A stretch of DNA of 52,614 nt, filler included, from Sphacelaria rigidula (Eukaryota): NCBI GenBank assembly GCA_964200075.2. It is 4 parts of 4 records of this genome, joined end to end, with 100 filler letters (N's around TTAATTAATTAA, not from the genome) between each part and the next. Parts side by side here need not be neighbours in the genome. Positions count along the whole stretch, not along the records: positions 39,539 to 52,614 come from CAXNAA020003171.1; 3 more parts are not named here. The stretch is one strand, 5' to 3'. Shown here piece after piece: positions 2,987-52,614 of this stretch; position 1 is the stretch's first letter; every line of letters starts with the position of its first letter. The notes under the pieces are model-generated. The model saw only the letters and a program-made list of their open reading frames with translations, was not told where the DNA came from and searched no databases. A program made the position numbers and the translations under genes.

Positions 2987-3449
2987 TGTTACGGTGGTAC
3001 GACTTTTAATACTGGCGGCAGTAGTCCAACAAACACACAGAAAATTTGAAGAAATAATCTAATGTCATGAAACTAGGAGGCGTTTATGATCAAATCTGGG
3101 ATTTTATAGTTGCGGGTCTGATCAAGCTTGACTAGGCCGGATGTGAGACTGATCAAAGGTACAGGTACGGCTTTTCCCGAGCCGTGCCGTTTACTCGCTA
3201 AGGTGGAGCTGACAGCTAAGTAATTGCTATAGCCGGAGAGCAGCTGAGGGAGCATTGAACGGGGCGATAACGAATACGAGTGAACAAGAGTTTTTTGTAT
3301 CAAGTGGGTATAGCTTACTGCGTGAAGCTATTGTGGTATTAACTATTCTGGATATAATCGTAACCTTAATCTGAGAGGACTGATCCTTCCAAGGATCTGA
3401 CCTGACCAACGTGCACACAAGAGGGTGCACGCTTGATAACACCATAACA
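2987..3449 (+). repeat. 5' LTR of element 2 (463 bp)
   Basis: TG...CA termini with a 10-bp imperfect inverted repeat (tgttacggtg ... caccataaca, 9/10). The PBS begins after a 2-nt spacer. Confidence 0.7.
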
Positions 3450-3451
3450 TT

Positions 3452-3469
3452 TGGCGTCGACGGTAGGGC
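3452..3469 (+). promoter_or_regulatory. Primer-binding site, probably complementary to a tRNA-Ser 3' end
   Basis: TGGCGTCGACGGTAGGGC directly after LTR-terminal CA+TT. Its reverse complement reads ...CCTAC-CGTCGAC-G-CCA (T-stem, acceptor strand, G discriminator, CCA). Confidence 0.65.
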
Positions 3470-3675
3470 TGGTGTTACCCGTGGCCCTAACCCCACCCCT
3501 TCCCTCTGCTGCCGGCGCGGATCTCGTCGTACAAGCTTCAGTCCAAGATCGTTCCGTCGTGCAGGTGGCACCCACGACCGGACCCCCAACTGCTGGCACT
3601 ACCACCCACGCTGCCCCGCCGGTACACACTTTGTCAACATTCGCGGCTGCTTTTCCTGCCCCGGCTGATCATGAT

Positions 3676-6024
3676 ATGTTGCCACATATTTTGACTTCTG
3701 TTTCGCACAACTCAGGACACCCGTCTTCGGCCCCAGCGGCTGCTTCTGGCATCAATCTGGAACCAGCTCCTGTGCCAGACGTTAGTGTAACCACAGTACT
3801 GCAAGTTCTATGCAATACCTTGCTCCGCTCTCCTTCGGCTTTCGCCGACATGCAAGTAGCCCCCAGTGCCCAGCCCCGCGAAACCGCGCCCACCCCCACC
3901 GAACCTCGGCTTTCACCCACACCGCCACGGCCGCCTTCCCCCCGACACAACATAAACACCCCCGCTCGGCGGATGATCGCGCGTGACGACAATTCGAGAC
4001 ATACCTCTCGTTCTTCCCGTATTTCTACTGCCTCAAGGGTTTTTTCACGTCGGCGCTCGCCACGTAATAATGTTACTGTGCACGCCGATGCCACGAGGGA
4101 GATTTTTTCAGACCTTCCTTCAGCAGAGGAGTCGTCGATCGCGCCTTCCAGCGACCAACCGCCCTACGACTCACGCCATCGCAGTCGCCGAGCTCGACTA
4201 TCACGCAATAGCTCTTCCCGCTCTGACGCGGCAGTCATCCGTTCCTTGCGGCAACAACTTGCCGATTTACAGCGCACAGTACAAACACTTGTCAACAACA
4301 CCATATCTCCGCCCCCCACCGCGCCCCCCCAAACCGCAGCTTTTGCTGCCCCGGCTCCAGTTCCCGCTGCCGCCACCGTTGCCGACACTGACGCCGATAG
4401 TGGTACCCATGCTGGCTTCGGGGCCCCTTGTGCACTCGCACCCGCCTCAACCCCCCCTGCATCTACTGTCGTGCCGTCCAACCCTGCGCCTTCGTCGCAG
4501 CAGGATCGCCCACAGTCGGGTCCAGAGCACTGTCCACTTGGGCTCCCGCGTATTTTCATGGACCATGGCCGCACTGCCCAAAAACAACTCATCCGTGAGT
4601 ACGCTGACCACGCGCCGGCCATGATGAATGATTTCGTCAATCGGCAACGCAATACACATGCAGCGGCGTCTACACTTTCCACACCGAGGAGTATCACGCT
4701 CCCCTCCGCGAACTGCAGGAGGAGCGCTCACGCGCCTCTCACGCCGGAGCCGCTCCTCGCTCCCACCGCACGCCATCACCCCCCCCCTACTACGATCACC
4801 CGCCCCGACATCAGTGCCAAACCGCGCCGCTTCTCCATCCACTGCGATGACATCCCTTGGTTCATGCTTTCTGTGTAGAATCTTGCGGGCAAGTACACCC
4901 CCTCGAATCCTTTGCAAAGCTCTCGCGACGCTTGGCTAGCGCTCGTTCGACCACCCCAAAACGCAGTCGCTTCTTACCTGGAACACGTACTCCGTGATGT
5001 GGATCGCCGCTTGACCGGCTACTTTGATCGCAGCACTCAAGGGAGTGCTATACAACGACTTAGTTCTTTCGGTGTCGCAACAGATGTTCCCTTCGCGGAC
5101 TACCTCCGAAAATTCAAGCATCTCCTTTCCAGCACCATGGGGGTAGGTCGCCAGACTGGCTCATCAGACGCAATGTGTCAATCATACGTACGGAATAGTG
5201 TGTCCGAGCAGTTCCCGACTCTGATGCCGTCACTATTTCCAGGTGCTTTAGCTCACCGCGAAGTGCCTTATCCCTCTGTGGATGCGATATGGAGTGCGTT
5301 TGTCCATCAAGAAAATAATTTGACGCCAGCCATTCGTGGCGACAAGTATGCTTCAGCTCGTTCTCAGTCTGATTCTGCGCCTTCTTCGACCCCTTCAGGA
5401 TCCCGTGCCCGGCCCCACACTTCGCTTCGTTCCTCGTGGGTGCCTGCCTCCGTGACCGGCTCGATCATGAGCGTTGCAAACAAGAGAGATCCGTTCAGCG
5501 CCAGTTTTGACGGATGCCCATACTCCGCCGAGACTTGGGATGATGTTTACACTGTATCTACCTCTGCGTTTACTACGGATGACCCACATCTGTGGAACCC
5601 CCTCCTCTCGTCTGCTGCCAGACACGAGGCCTTCAGCCGCCACGCAAATAGTTGCATCAATTGTAACAACCAAGGGCACAGTATGCGCGATTGTACTCGC
5701 CCTTGTATCAACTCTTACGACCTCATGAACTCTGAGCTGCAGGACAGTGAGCCAGCATGGCGCCGATGGCAGAAACGCATGCGTGAATATCGCACACCCA
5801 ACCGTCATTCTCGCCGCCCTTTCAACAACCGCGACAACACTCGCTCAAATCGCGACAGTCGCAGCAACAACTACGACAACTCTGCCTCCCGGCGAAGAGA
5901 GAGTTTTTCTCACCGTCACCGGAATTCCGCTGGTAGACACCAGCGCACGGGGCCGAATTACAATCACTCGAACCCCAACGCCAGAAACCCTGGTTCCTTC
6001 ATGACTGATCGTACCGATCCATGA
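3676..6024 (+). pseudogene. gag: gag of element 2 (Pro/Ser/Ala-rich N-terminal part plus capsid/nucleocapsid part), interrupted
   Basis: ORFs 3451..4878 and 4912..6024. Zinc knuckle CINCNNQGHSMRDC (CX2CX4HX4C) near 5653, followed by an Arg/Asn-rich basic tail. Confidence 0.8.
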
Positions 6025-49709: not shown

Positions 49710-52424
49710 ATGCCGCGGCATCGTATTGTCAAGGTTGAAGCATTACTGGTGTCGGTATTCCTTGTCGGTGTTGGGACGAACGTGGAGTGCTTCGCCCCTC
49801 CCTCTGCCTCGTTAGAAGTGAGTGCAGCGGGCCACCGCCGCATTGCCCGCAACAGGCACGCCAGTAGCATGCCTTCGCACGCCGCTTCAACAACATGGAC
49901 ACACCGCAGCAGATCCATAACACCATTGCTCCTGCAAAGCAGCAGACACAATTGCAGCCGTAAGCGACCCCGAACGCTTTCGCCATCCCGGTTGACTGTA
50001 GGAGATGATGGAGCCGAGACCTCAGCCGATACTGCTGAACTCAACGACGTCGTTGGCCGATCGAATGCCGTTGACAACCTCCCGCTTCCCCCGCGACTGC
50101 GGGCGATGGTGGAAAACCTCGACCGGCAGCCTGACTTGTGCAGCAAGAGCAAGCTCCTGGTTCACATGGGCGACGCGTTTTCGTTGACGGGTGCCTACTG
50201 CGCCAACAGCCCTTTAACATCGTCATCATCATCATTGAGTAATGAGGGCGCACCGCCATCAAAACAACCACCGCCGCCGCCGCCGCAGTTGCACAAAGTA
50301 CCTGGGTGTGTGTCCGAGGTGTACGTAGCAGTAGATGTGCGTAGTCGCGATGGTGGTGGTGGTGGTTGTGGATCCGTGCTTCCATCAGAATCATCAGAGT
50401 TGACGGAAGACACCACGAGGATGAACGTCGAACGCGAGATCGAAAATACTGCTTATGTGTCTATCTGTGGAAGCGCAGACGCGAGGGTGTCTCGTGGTAT
50501 CCTCGCGCTCCTGTCACAAGGATTGGAAGGGGAGAGTCCGGCGACGGTGCTGGGTCTGAGGGGCAAGGATCTCGCGATTGCCGTGGGAATGAGAGCGGGC
50601 CTGACGAGCAGTCGCATCAACGGCCTTGGAAACATGCTGAGCGTTATCCAGAGGGAGGTCTGGCAGCAGCAACAGCGCCTCGAAGAACAACGACGACCAC
50701 CACCATCACCAAAAACAGCCGCCGTAACAGCAACAGTCCCAGATGTAAAAGTGGCAACAATGACGCCAGCAAAAGATGAGGACGAGAAAAACGCCGCTAA
50801 TGACGATTGTGTCAATGAGGTGACGTTCTCCACCGGCGTCTATGACGACGCTGACACCCACGCCGACATCGGTGCCGTCGGCGAGGACTTGGGTAGCAGT
50901 AAACTTCACACCCCGCCAGTAATCGACGCTGCGGCAGCTGTTCCTGGGCCATCACCATTCTCGTCATCTCCTTTGCCTCGGAACGAATTCAGGGACGCTC
51001 CTGATCCGGCGATGGAAGCGAAGGAGGGAGAATATGCCGATCTATCAAGACGATCGGGCGGCTACAAAACCGATGCACATGATCGAGGGGCGCTTGATCT
51101 TGGATTGGGCGAGCGGAAGGAGACGAAGAAGGAGGAGGCTACACGCTGGACTCCGCTACCTGGCTCGGAGGACGAGGTAGCGGTGCTGTTGTCCGGGGGG
51201 GTGGACTCGTCGGTGGCGCTGCGGCTGTTGCAGGATCAGGGTTACCGTGTCCGTGCGTTTTACCTCAAGATCTGGCTTGAGGACGAGCTTGCGCACCTTG
51301 GGGAGTGCCCTTGGGTGAGACTTGAGAGCGTGCTATGCGTATGACTAGTTTTGTTGTAGACACTTGAGAATCGCGTTGCGGCTTAGAAGGGTAACGAAAT
51401 TGATGTGCAACCGGATCGACGTTTCTTTGTCTTCATCTCAAGTTGAAGGTGAGATTACCGTAGTTCTCGTTTGTTGGGAGTATGCGGAAAGATATCGTCT
51501 CGTGCGGCTGCAACCTAGTGGGTATGCTAATCCGCTTGAACCGCAACTGGCACCGTATCACGGTTGACTGCTTTGTGTAAGTAAAACGGTATGTACACGA
51601 GTCCTCCTTTAGGCGAGGTCTCGAAAATTTCCACGGAGATTTACATGAGCGCTGGTGCTAGTAGACTGCCTTTCTGTTTGCTGTACTCTACACACACACG
51701 CCCCTTTCATACACACTACACGCAACCGCAACTCATGGTTCTCACATTTTCCGTGCACTATATAGTGTACCGGTCGCAGTGATACGAACGAACAAACTTG
51801 CTATGCATGAGGCAGGAGTTAAATCTCAGTGTATGCTCCAACACTCATGATAAGGCCGCGTCTTGTAGTCAGAAAACGTATTCTCTGAGGACTACCCTTT
51901 TTGAACCTTTCATCGCTGATTTTTGGCGAAATATGGTCCTCGGCAGATTGGACCTCCTCTGAAAGAGTCTTTCAGGGGAAACCGAGTCCGTTTTCTGACT
52001 ATATAAAGCGGCCCAACACACCGTTGCGTATTTTCTGGTGACGGTTTTCCCCACCCGTACCCGAAAACCCTTGTCCCCCTAACTTCGGTGTTCTTCATAT
52101 TTTACCCCCCCCTCCCAAAAACAAACACACGAAAAACAAAAACACGCGCAGGAGGAAGACTTGGCCTACGCGACAGCAGTCTGTGAGAAGGCACGGGTGC
52201 CGCTGGAGGTTGTGCCGCTGCAGCGCGAGTACTGGGAACACGTGGTGGCTTACACGGTACGCGAGGCTCGGGCGGGGCGGACCCCTAACCCAGATGTGAT
52301 GTGTAACAGCAGGATAAAGTTCGGCATGTTTTATGATCACGTAGGGAGGCACTTCAGGCACGTCGCTACCGGACACTACGCGAGGCTTGAGCGCGATGGT
52401 GAGGATGGCACTCCCGACAACCAG
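49710..52424 (+). CDS. mnmA: Predicted plastid-targeted SufE-domain / tRNA-specific 2-thiouridylase MnmA fusion protein (exons 1-2; 3' end beyond contig)
   Basis: Exon 1 (49710-51314, ..ECPW|gtgaga): signal peptide ending VEC-FAP, SufE motifs ([44 protein letters not shown]), then MnmA PP-loop [14 protein letters not shown]. Exon 2 (52152-52424, gcag|..CAG|gtgagc): [32 protein letters not shown]. Confidence 0.92.
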
Positions 52425-52614
52425 GTGAGCGTTTGTTCACATCTCTCTGTATATATGAATCACATTGAGAGCAATGCTAGGAGACTGTGTCCGTGGGATG
52501 TGTGTGGCTTGGGGGAGGGGGGGGGGGGGGGGGGGAGGTCATAATTTTACATGCCGTGTTGATTGTGGGGGGGGGGGGAGGAAGGCGGTAGGTATGGTTT
52601 TTTTATACTTACAA

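What the first reader, a model, noticed from the sequence alone, without database searches (positions are those of the whole stretch)
49710..52424. SufE-MnmA fusion: a self-contained sulfur relay for organellar tRNA 2-thiolation
Seen: one open exon encodes a complete SufE-like domain (~50080-50660, putative persulfide Cys in KVPGC at 50307-50309, plus the SRxNG motif). A ~170-aa linker follows, then the start of MnmA (SGGVDS at ~51192), which continues in exon 2 ([15 protein letters not shown]). Because both domains start in the same exon, this is not a gene-model merge. Established: SufE accepts sulfur from the desulfurase SufS. E. coli MnmA is fed by IscS-TusABCDE, and Bacillus MnmA directly by YrvO. 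Plant SufE domains occur fused to partner domains (BolA, NadA). Inference: this is a Rosetta-stone fusion in which SufS loads the tethered SufE Cys, and the sulfur passes to MnmA for s2U34 on tRNA-Lys/Glu/Gln, or supports an Fe-S cluster on MnmA. That would couple the plastid SUF system to translation without a Tus relay. I do not know of this fusion being characterised, but I cannot search.
Basis: partly seen in the sequence, partly recalled or inferred. Interest (0 to 1): 0.88.

Follow-up and report, generated by a model that had tools for sequence, protein, structure and literature searches.

The report
Plastid SufE-MnmA fusion gene, alga
This is a real, expressed algal gene that joins a sulfur-carrier domain (SufE) to the tRNA-thiolating enzyme MnmA, but the same fusion is already noted in the plastid enzymes of the malaria and Toxoplasma parasites, so it is a sound new member of a known kind and not a new discovery.

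Summary
One open exon (49710..51314, +) encodes a signal-peptide-like N-terminus, a complete SufE domain (Pfam 53.5 bits, cut-off 27; SufE/CsdE fold), a ~150-aa low-complexity linker and the PP-loop start of MnmA. Exon 2 (52152..52424) continues MnmA with the D99/C102-equivalent residues. The gene runs off the window's 3' end. Contigs from three runs join 51314 to 52152 (GT..AG), carry both domains on one molecule and read on in frame into MnmA.

The SufE cysteine (codon 50307-50309) is invariant in 33 of 33 aligned fusion proteins. Through a compact ortholog it aligns with the active-cysteine loop of CsdE. The same architecture occurs in red algae, brown algae, diatoms, haptophytes and a chromerid (119 of 120 top profile hits). 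It appears in none of the 80 best prokaryote loci.

It is not new. Toxoplasma MnmA is described with a SufE domain (PMC9420914). P. falciparum MnmA is described with a SufE-like N-domain and the same relay hypothesis (PMC10219651). This scan already logged the fusion in a red alga (e1-559517).

Most likely mechanism, inferred and not shown: plastid SufS loads the tethered cysteine, which supplies MnmA for s2U34. Verdict: new member of a known kind, moderate interest.

The parts
49519..49709 (+). 5' untranslated region. It holds a 5-codon upstream ORF (ATG 49553) and an in-frame upstream ATG at 49659 that could be an alternative start.
   Evidence: Contigs of X1/X2/X4 begin at 49519, 49528 and 49540. 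Sequence read. Contigs cannot fix a true 5' end.
49710..51314 (+). Exon 1 coding part: 535 codons covering the targeting signal, SufE domain, linker and first 47 residues of MnmA.
   Evidence: Covered without a break by one contig in each of X1, X2 and X4.
49710..49790 (+). Signal-peptide-like N-terminus (hydrophobic core) followed by F-A-P-P. Read as the first half of a bipartite plastid signal of complex red plastids.
   Evidence: Sequence. Brown-alga orthologs P0012 and P0019 begin the same way and also have F after the hydrophobic stretch. The motif rule is recalled and no predictor was run.
50079..50714 (+). SufE domain (residues ~124-335) with two lineage-specific insertions (about residues 165-192 and 214-250).
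   Evidence: Pfam PF02657 at 53.5 bits. AlphaFold2 model with pLDDT 83 and pTM 0.78. Foldseek ranks 1-11 and 16 are all SufE/CsdE, prob 1.00, TM by target 0.64-0.78. Insertions seen in the alignment.
50307..50309 (+). Codon of the putative persulfide-accepting cysteine (residue 200, motif K-V-P-G-C).
   Evidence: Invariant in 22/22, 16/16, 33/33 and 29/29 aligned fusions. The same column in the compact ortholog P0042 aligns with the G-C loop of CsdE.
50715..51173 (+). Low-complexity, poorly conserved linker (~150 aa).
   Evidence: No Pfam match. Length and sequence vary among orthologs.
51174..51314 (+). Start of the MnmA PP-loop (HUP) domain. S-G-G-V-D-S lies at 51192-51209.
   Evidence: PF03054 residues 489-535 and TIGR00420 positions 2-48. 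Alignment with bacterial MnmA.
51315..52151 (+). Intron 1 (837 nt, GT..AG, phase 0).
   Evidence: Skipped in one contig each of X1, X2 and X4. Present in the contiguous contig of X5. Sites read.
52152..52424 (+). Exon 2 (91 codons): MnmA continues. The D99-equivalent codon is 52293-52295 and the C102-equivalent codon is 52302-52304 (D-type MnmA).
   Evidence: PF03054 at 97.3 bits. Numbering taken from the Klebsiella oxytoca MnmA of locus L041. Contigs cover it.
52425..52614 (+). Start of intron 2 (donor GTGAGC; contains long G runs). The rest of the gene lies beyond the window.
   Evidence: The contigs leave the window sequence at 52425 and run on for 664 nt. Their first letters read in frame as G-R-V-R-L-L-M-S-P-D, which matches the orthologs.

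Best explanation
This is a nuclear gene of an alga with a red-type complex plastid. Its nearest named relatives are brown algae. It encodes one polypeptide made of a signal peptide plus transit region, a SufE domain, a flexible linker and a D-type MnmA.

It is the algal counterpart of the apicoplast MnmA of Toxoplasma and Plasmodium.

Proposed working:
1. The protein is imported into the plastid.
2. The plastid cysteine desulfurase SufS (NFS2-type) transfers a persulfide to the invariant cysteine of the tethered SufE domain (residue 200).
3. The flexible linker lets that domain reach the MnmA active site.
4. There the sulfur is handed to the catalytic cysteines (C102/C199 equivalents) and inserted at C2 of ATP-activated U34 of plastid tRNA-Lys, -Glu and -Gln.

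The tether would replace the TusABCDE relay of E. coli and would make plastid tRNA thiolation independent of free SufE.

Shown here: the gene structure, the joined transcript-like contigs, both domain identities, the SufE fold, the invariance of the cysteine, and the taxonomic spread.

Inferred: plastid location, SufS as donor, the direction of transfer, and the tRNA substrates.
For: Both domains lie in one exon and on one spliced contig in three runs.

SufE domain:
- Pfam score above the cut-off.
- The best fold matches are all SufE/CsdE, including SufE bound to SufS (8vbs) and CsdE bound to CsdA (4lw4, 5ft8).
- The cysteine is invariant in 33/33 fusions from red algae, brown algae, diatoms, haptophytes and Vitrella.
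- In a compact ortholog the cysteine aligns with the G-C loop of CsdE. That this cysteine is CsdE's acceptor is recalled.
- D, G and R of the (A/S)D..R.. .RG and SRxNG motifs are invariant too.

MnmA domain:
- PP-loop and D99/C102 equivalents are in the window.
- The C199 equivalent is invariant in full-length orthologs.

Spread of the architecture:
- 119 of the 120 listed profile hits.
- 56 of the 120 listed single-sequence hits.
- 13 of 13 hits for a haptophyte-type SufE region.

The N-terminus is like that of the brown-alga orthologs, with F after the hydrophobic core.

Literature:
- TgMnmA has a SufE domain plus tRNA_Me_trans domains, and the section heading states that it localises to the apicoplast (PMC9420914, passages).
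- In P. falciparum, deletion of SufS or MnmA disrupts the apicoplast while deletion of free SufE does not. The authors propose that the SufE-like N-domain of PfMnmA could receive sulfur from SufS (PMC10219651, Discussion part 1 and passages).
Against: - No sulfur transfer was tested.
- The library type of the three runs with the joint is not on record (RNA is the tool's guess), and all three come from one study.
- Only about a third of MnmA lies in the window, so C199 and the C-terminal domains of this very gene were not seen.
- TIGR00420 stays under its whole-protein cut-off for that reason (92 against 237 bits).
- Plastid targeting rests on reading the N-terminus by eye and on a recalled motif rule.
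- The P. falciparum paper also states that SufS may pass sulfur directly to MnmA, and B. subtilis MnmA alone could replace PfMnmA in one of four attempts. The tethered domain may therefore help without being obligatory.
- Whether D-type MnmA works by persulfide or by a [4Fe-4S] cluster is disputed (PMC11784392, abstract).
Confidence: 0.65

Rival explanations
1. The tethered SufE domain works as it does in plant SufE3 (SufE-NadA). It recruits and activates SufS so that sulfide is delivered for building or repairing a labile [4Fe-4S] cluster on the MnmA domain (ligands D99, C102, C199). That cluster, not a protein persulfide, then carries the sulfur to U34.
For: - In Arabidopsis SufE3 the NadA domain alone does not complement, and the SufE domain is held responsible for reconstituting the 4Fe-4S cluster through NFS2 (PMC5890173, section 7).
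- E. coli D-type MnmA is reported to bind a cluster with 2 Cys + 1 Asp (PMC13066941, passages; PMC8053098, abstract in the listing).
- The three candidate ligands are invariant in the fusions.
Against: - The cluster dependence of D-type MnmA is contested (PMC11784392, abstract).
- In P. falciparum, loss of SufC/SufD (the Fe-S scaffold) or of free SufE does not disrupt the apicoplast while loss of MnmA does. This argues that MnmA there does not need SUF-made clusters, although in-situ assembly is not excluded.
- Nothing in the sequence tells the two routes apart.
Confidence: 0.2
2. The SufE domain is only a docking and activating module. It brings SufS to MnmA and stimulates desulfurase turnover, while the SufS persulfide goes straight to the MnmA cysteine as in Bacillus YrvO-MnmA. 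The SufE cysteine is not an obligatory carrier.
For: - The P. falciparum authors consider direct SufS-to-MnmA transfer the closest analogy (Discussion passage).
- B. subtilis MnmA without any SufE domain could replace PfMnmA in one line.
Against: A pure docking role would not require the cysteine, yet it is invariant in 33/33 fusions across very distant lineages. The SufE-family D and R positions are invariant as well.
Confidence: 0.1
3. The N-terminal region is a decayed or merely structural remnant, or the protein works in the mitochondrion with Nfs1 and not in the plastid with SufS.
For: - The SufE domain of this protein carries two long insertions, and the Pfam alignment covers only profile positions 44-120.
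- No targeting predictor was available.
Against: - The fold model is confident outside the insertions and matches whole SufE/CsdE chains.
- The key residues are invariant.
- The N-terminus resembles brown-alga orthologs, with a hydrophobic signal followed by F.
- The apicomplexan counterparts are reported to be located in the apicoplast.
Confidence: 0.04

Closest known systems
Apicoplast MnmA of Toxoplasma gondii (TGGT1_309110; PMC9420914)
   Same: Nuclear gene with a SufE Pfam domain N-terminal to the tRNA_Me_trans (MnmA) domains. Reported by the paper (section heading seen) to localise to a red-derived plastid.
   Different: Much longer, with domain coordinates up to residue 1560 and long insertions. 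It belongs to a non-photosynthetic parasite. The paper lists the SufE domain without discussing its role (passages seen).
Apicoplast MnmA of Plasmodium falciparum (PMC10219651)
   Same: A 421-aa N-terminal extension with a SufE-like structural domain, for which the authors state the same SufS -> SufE-like domain -> MnmA hypothesis. The genetics show dependence on SufS and not on free SufE.
   Different: There the SufE-like domain was detected only by structure-based analysis. Here it passes the Pfam cut-off. The authors could not express PfMnmA because of AT richness, and the algal genes do not have that obstacle. Supplementary figure 3-8 of that paper was not seen.
Arabidopsis SufE3 (SufE-NadA) and SufE1 (SufE-BolA) (PMC5890173)
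   Same: A plastid SufE domain fused N-terminally to a client or partner domain. In SufE3 the SufE domain activates the plastid desulfurase and is needed for the client's activity.
   Different: The client is quinolinate synthase with a 4Fe-4S cluster (or BolA), not a tRNA thiolase. These are green-lineage proteins.
E. coli IscS-TusA-TusBCD-TusE-MnmA relay and Bacillus subtilis YrvO-MnmA pair
   Same: The same end reaction, by a D-type MnmA with the D99/C102/C199 triad. Sulfur comes from a cysteine desulfurase.
   Different: E. coli uses five separate carrier proteins unrelated to SufE. Bacillus uses none. Here a single SufE-type carrier is tethered covalently. The details of the Tus relay are recalled, not read here.
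E. coli CsdA-CsdE
   Same: The best sequence matches among solved structures are CsdE chains. CsdE is a SufE-like acceptor that takes a persulfide from its own desulfurase.
   Different: CsdE is a free-standing protein. Its link to a tRNA-modifying enzyme (TcdA) is recalled only and is not a fusion.

Membership tests
SufE (Pfam PF02657) | Profile score above the curated cut-off | tested here: met
   53.5 bits against 27, E 2.6e-14. The aligned part is profile positions 44-120 of 121 only, because of an insertion.
SufE (Pfam PF02657) | SufE/CsdE fold over the whole domain | tested here: met
   AlphaFold2 pLDDT 83, pTM 0.78. Foldseek ranks 1-11 and 16 are SufE or CsdE chains, prob 1.00, TM by target 0.64-0.78. 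IscU/SufU follow only at E > 0.09.
SufE (Pfam PF02657) | Persulfide-accepting cysteine in the G-C loop | tested here: met
   Cys200 is invariant in 33/33 fusions. The same column in P0042 aligns with the G-C of CsdE. That this is the acceptor Cys of CsdE/SufE is recalled.
SufE (Pfam PF02657) | Accepts sulfur from, and stimulates, a SufS-type desulfurase | not testable with these tools
   Needs biochemistry. No genome is held, so the organism's SufS could not even be looked for.
MnmA / tRNA 2-thiouridine(34) synthase (PF03054, TIGR00420) | PP-loop S-G-G-x-D-S | tested here: met
   S-G-G-V-D-S at 51192-51209. PF03054 at 41.3 and 97.3 bits in the two exons.
MnmA / tRNA 2-thiouridine(34) synthase (PF03054, TIGR00420) | D99 and C102 (D-type active site) | tested here: met
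   P-N-P-D-V-M-C-N aligned with Klebsiella oxytoca MnmA residues 96-103.
MnmA / tRNA 2-thiouridine(34) synthase (PF03054, TIGR00420) | C199 and the middle and C-terminal domains; equivalog score | tested here: inconclusive
   These lie beyond the window end. TIGR00420 scores 92.2 bits against a cut-off of 237 on the fragment. They are invariant or present in full-length orthologs, and the contigs run on 664 nt in frame.
Plastid-type SufE-MnmA fusion (as in apicoplast MnmA) | SufE domain N-terminal to MnmA on one polypeptide | tested here: met
   One exon and one joined contig. Same order in 119 of 120 listed relatives.
Plastid-type SufE-MnmA fusion (as in apicoplast MnmA) | Orthology with the Toxoplasma and Plasmodium proteins | not tested
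Indirect leads only: a fusion in the chromerid Vitrella (P0042), and an Apicomplexa cluster of 974 aa as the second nearest Atlas cluster (score 0.96).
Plastid-type SufE-MnmA fusion (as in apicoplast MnmA) | Location in the plastid | not testable with these tools
   Only a signal-peptide-like N-terminus followed by F, shared with brown-alga orthologs. No predictor and no experiment.

The most novel reading that the evidence does not exclude
The SufE-MnmA fusion arose once in the red-algal line and was carried with the red plastid into ochrophytes, haptophytes, chromerids and apicomplexans. It is a marker of that lineage and is absent from prokaryotes and from the green line.

Its tethered SufE is the sole and obligatory sulfur entry into plastid tRNA thiolation. 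On this reading it works by building a labile [4Fe-4S] cluster in situ on MnmA, as SufE3 does for NadA.

Compact, easily expressed algal versions would then settle the persulfide-versus-cluster dispute about D-type MnmA.
Probability: 0.2. Interest if true: 0.6.

Novelty: new member of a known kind. Interest (0 to 1): 0.35.

Why it matters
Plastid-encoded proteins depend on s2U34 in tRNA-Lys, -Glu and -Gln. In apicomplexan parasites, loss of this one enzyme destroys the plastid. How sulfur reaches MnmA there is open, because the parasite enzyme could not be expressed (PMC10219651).

This gene and its many algal relatives show that the SufE tether, with its cysteine, is kept from red algae to brown algae, diatoms, haptophytes and chromerids. 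Selection is therefore on the carrier function. The algal relatives also offer ordinary-composition, compact orthologs for the biochemical test.

The work exposes an annotation gap as well. The Ectocarpus siliculosus protein P0239 starts inside the PP-loop and lacks the whole SufE part.

It does not reveal a new kind of system.

Tried and rejected
- Whole-genome look-up: no genome is held for this window. The rest of the gene, the organism's SufS and free SufE, and a possible second (mitochondrial) MnmA could not be sought.
- RNA runs: no listed holder is on record as RNA. The three runs used are RNA only by the tool's guess.
- Complex prediction, with the MnmA domain and SufE domain of the brown-alga ortholog P0031 and alignment A3: score 0.00 in both runs, controls not folded, no verdict. 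This is neither for nor against contact.
- Phmmer of the window's own SufE region against solved structures reached only the C-terminal half (E about 1e-3), because of the insertions. The Cys loop was therefore aligned through the compact ortholog P0042.
- Idea that the GC-rich P0048/P0058 group is green-algal: rejected. Its nearest named relative is Prymnesium, a haptophyte.
- Green lineage: no named green-lineage fusion was seen. The Atlas lists Chlorophyta (532 aa) and Streptophyta (509 aa) MnmA clusters without SufE among the three families it shows. This does not prove absence.
- Cyanobacterial origin: none of the 80 best prokaryote loci is cyanobacterial. However, the scan was pattern-limited and capped, and no tree was built, so the origin stays open.
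- Neighbouring open frames (ten, including 42544..44673 on the minus strand) gave no Pfam family, so the surroundings add nothing.
- Literature: searches 'SufE'+'MnmA' (8 papers held), 'SufE'+'thiouridylase' (4 papers) and two or more of SufE, tRNA_Me_trans, TrmU, MTU1 (87 papers, 15 listed) turned up only the Toxoplasma and Plasmodium papers for this fusion. No paper on the algal genes was found in the held library.
- Supplementary files and figure supplements were not seen.
Full report
**What is in the sequence**

A stop-to-stop open frame runs from 49647 to 51344 on the + strand (565 aa). From the ATG at 49710 it reads, in order:
- a short basic stretch,
- a hydrophobic core followed by F-A-P-P,
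- a serine/arginine-rich stretch,
- a region that Pfam calls SufE,
- about 150 residues of low-complexity sequence,
- the motif [12 protein letters not shown].

Pfam on this translation gives:

| Family | E-value | Bits | Cut-off | Residues |
|---|---|---|---|---|
| SufE PF02657 | 2.6e-14 | 53.5 | 27 | 237-315 |
| tRNA_Me_trans PF03054 | 1.7e-10 | 41.3 | 20.6 | 489-535 |

NCBIfam agrees. It finds the MnmA equivalogs and CsdE/SufE, all below their whole-protein cut-offs because only fragments are offered.

A second open stretch downstream matches PF03054 profile positions 38-134 (E 1.2e-27, 97.3 bits).

Splice sites read from the sequence:
- donor GTGAGA at 51315, directly after ...G-E-C-P-W;
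- acceptor AG at 52150-52151, directly before E-E-D-L-A-Y;
- a further donor GTGAGC at 52425.

Both junctions are phase 0, and the joined reading matches bacterial and algal MnmA column for column. The gene then leaves the window. No genome is held for it.

**Is it one gene product?**

I laid contigs of four public runs on 49400-52614.
- In X1, X2 and X4 (one study; library type not on record, 'RNA' is the tool's guess) a single contig of 2734, 2725 or 2713 nt behaves the same way in each run.
  - It covers 49519, 49528 or 49540 to 51313 without a break.
  - It skips 837 nt with GT..AG ends.
  - It covers 52151-52425.
  - It then runs on for 664 nt that are not in the window.
- The first letters of that loose end, read in the frame of exon 2, give G-R-V-R-L-L-M-S-P-D. 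This is the next conserved MnmA block of the Ectocarpus and Cladosiphon orthologs.
- In X5 (a second study) one 4521-nt contig covers 49400-52502 with the intron in place.

The joined form therefore exists beside the unspliced DNA form, and it carries the SufE region and MnmA together. This is what a spliced mRNA would give.

The caveats are that all three runs belong to one study, that they are contigs and not reads, and that the true 5' end cannot be fixed. The 5' part holds a 5-codon upstream ORF (ATG 49553) and an in-frame ATG at 49659. Orthologs begin at the position of 49710.

**The SufE domain**

The Pfam alignment covers only the last two thirds of the profile. The reason is visible in an alignment of 22 fusion proteins. 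This protein has two lineage-specific insertions, one before the cysteine loop and one after the first strand.

An AlphaFold2 model of residues 120-335, built with 33 aligned relatives, has pLDDT 83 and pTM 0.78. Confidence is low only in the insertions.

Foldseek against the PDB ranks SufE and CsdE chains first: ranks 1-11 and 16, prob 1.00, TM by target 0.64-0.78. These include SufE bound to SufS and CsdE bound to CsdA. IscU/SufU-type proteins follow far behind.

The cysteine of K-V-P-G-C (residue 200, nt 50307-50309) is invariant in:
- 22/22 fusions,
- 16/16,
- 33/33,
- 29/29.

The compact Vitrella ortholog aligns over residues 22-135 with CsdE (E 1.4e-6), and its G-C falls on the G-C of CsdE. 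That this is the persulfide-accepting cysteine of CsdE/SufE is my recollection of the family, not a result of a call.

The other invariant columns of the domain are a V three residues before the Cys, the D and G of the (A/S)-D-A-R-x-S-R-G block, and the R of S-R-x-N-G.

**The MnmA part**

I used the MnmA of Klebsiella oxytoca (locus L041) as a ruler. Exon 2 carries D and C at positions 99 and 102, so this is a D-type MnmA. Position 199 lies beyond the window. It is a cysteine in all 16 and all 29 full-length fusions aligned.

**Relatives**

- A single-sequence search found the architecture PF02657 + PF03054 in 56 of the 120 listed proteins. The remaining 64 comprise 63 that carry the MnmA family PF03054 without SufE, nearly all of 336-376 aa (two are 445 and 455 aa), and one partial protein (P0034) that carries only PF02657.
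- A profile of 16 full-length fusions found it in 119 of the 120 listed.
- A search with the SufE region of P0048 found both families in 13 of 13 hits. The nearest named hit was Prymnesium.

Named members:
- Brown algae: several Ectocarpus species, Cladosiphon okamuranus, Choristocarpus, Discosporangium.
- Diatoms: Cylindrotheca, Pseudo-nitzschia, Thalassiosira.
- Haptophytes: Prymnesium.
- Red algae: Gracilaria, Porphyridium, Purpureofilum, Rhodosorus, Cyanidium.
- The chromerid Vitrella.
- Transcriptome-derived (MMETSP) records labelled 'type:complete'.

The one exception is the Ectocarpus siliculosus protein P0239 (478 aa). It is 93% identical to residues 406-877 of the Ectocarpus sp. 4 fusion and begins at a methionine inside the PP-loop. 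It is therefore a truncated gene model, not a separate form.

In prokaryotes, the 80 best loci of a scan of 185,579 species genomes all matched only residues 194-593 of the query. That is the MnmA part, and none matched the SufE part. The best of them, a Dependentiae genome at 49% identity, encodes a stand-alone 350-aa MnmA. That scan is pattern-based and capped, so it does not prove absence.

No named green-lineage fusion appeared. The Atlas clusters of Chlorophyta and Streptophyta MnmA do not list SufE among the three families shown. This too is no proof.

**What is known**

[quoted passage not shown] A section heading states that TgMnmA localises to the apicoplast (PMC9420914, passages).
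- The P. falciparum paper reports a 421-aa N-terminal extension of PfMnmA with 'a SufE-like structural domain'. It writes that this domain could receive sulfur from SufS and pass it to the MnmA domain.
- The same paper shows that SufS and MnmA, but not free SufE, SufC or SufD, are needed to keep the apicoplast. It also states that recombinant PfMnmA could not be made (PMC10219651, passages and Discussion part 1).
- An earlier report of this scan (e1-559517) describes the same fusion in the red alga Cyanidioschyzon merolae and reached the same verdict. I did not see that gene, but I found the fusion in five other red algae.
- Three literature searches found no paper on the algal genes in the held library. 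Supplements were not seen.

**How it most likely works**

The best-supported reading is a tethered one-step relay:
1. Plastid SufS puts a persulfide on Cys200.
2. The flexible linker lets the domain reach the MnmA active site.
3. The sulfur goes through the MnmA cysteines onto ATP-activated U34.

Support for this reading:
- A whole SufE fold is kept.
- The cysteine and the SufE-family D and R are strictly kept across lineages that separated very long ago.
- The MnmA triad is kept.
- The parasite genetics make free SufE dispensable for the MnmA-dependent phenotype.

None of the transfer steps is shown.

The main rival borrows from plant SufE3. There the SufE domain is needed so that the NadA domain gets its 4Fe-4S cluster (PMC5890173, section 7). 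D-type MnmA has been reported to hold a 2Cys+1Asp cluster, which is disputed (PMC13066941, passages; PMC11784392, abstract).

A third reading sees the domain only as a SufS docking and activating module. It is weakened by the invariance of the cysteine.

A structure-prediction test of contact between the two domains gave no verdict and counts for nothing either way.

**Verdict**

- The fusion is already described in apicomplexans and already catalogued by domain databases in many algae.
- This window adds a well-supported ochrophyte member with direct evidence for the joined transcript form.
- Together with its relatives it shows that the fusion spans the red-plastid lineage.
- Its practical value is to offer expressible orthologs for a question the parasite field could not test.

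Noticed in passing
P0239 against P0019: The Ectocarpus siliculosus protein named 'tRNA-methyltransferase' (478 aa) starts at a Met inside the PP-loop. It is 93% identical to residues 406-877 of the Ectocarpus sp. 4 fusion. The public model seems to have lost the SufE domain, the linker and the first MnmA strand.
   Followed up: partly
L001:2998-4050 (Candidatus Dependentiae MAG): A stand-alone 350-aa bacterial MnmA is 49% identical to the fusion's MnmA part, well above the 38-43% of the other 79 prokaryote loci. It shares the block [10 protein letters not shown]...C-P-W that is otherwise typical of the algal fusions. This could be gene exchange with a protist host, in either direction.
   Followed up: partly
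window 48812-48907 and 49184-49230: Two tandem repeats lie upstream of the gene: a 36-nt unit x 2.7 copies (95% matches) and a 7-nt unit TGTACCC x 6.7 copies.
   Followed up: no
window 42541-44673 (-), also 3448-6024 (+): Long open frames (710 aa; 476 + 381 aa) have no Pfam family at E <= 0.001. The region 4-12 kb has a strongly negative GC skew (-0.17 to -0.22).
   Followed up: partly
window 52503-52614: Intron 2 holds long G runs. The DNA-like contig of X5 stops at 52502, and the tool skipped this stretch as repeat.
   Followed up: no
window 49577, 49911, 49927, 49934, 50322, 50996, 52347: The contig of run X4 differs from the window at seven places. T>C at 50322 changes Y to H, five residues after the SufE cysteine. 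The 99%-identical database protein P0003 and several orthologs also have H there. These are probably allelic or strain variants.
   Followed up: no
P0171: One 1186-aa relative carries a SET domain (PF00856) besides SufE and MnmA. This may be a merged gene model on a 5-kb contig.
   Followed up: no
window 49553-49570 and 49659: A five-codon upstream ORF lies in the 5' leader, and an in-frame ATG lies 51 nt before the chosen start.
   Followed up: no
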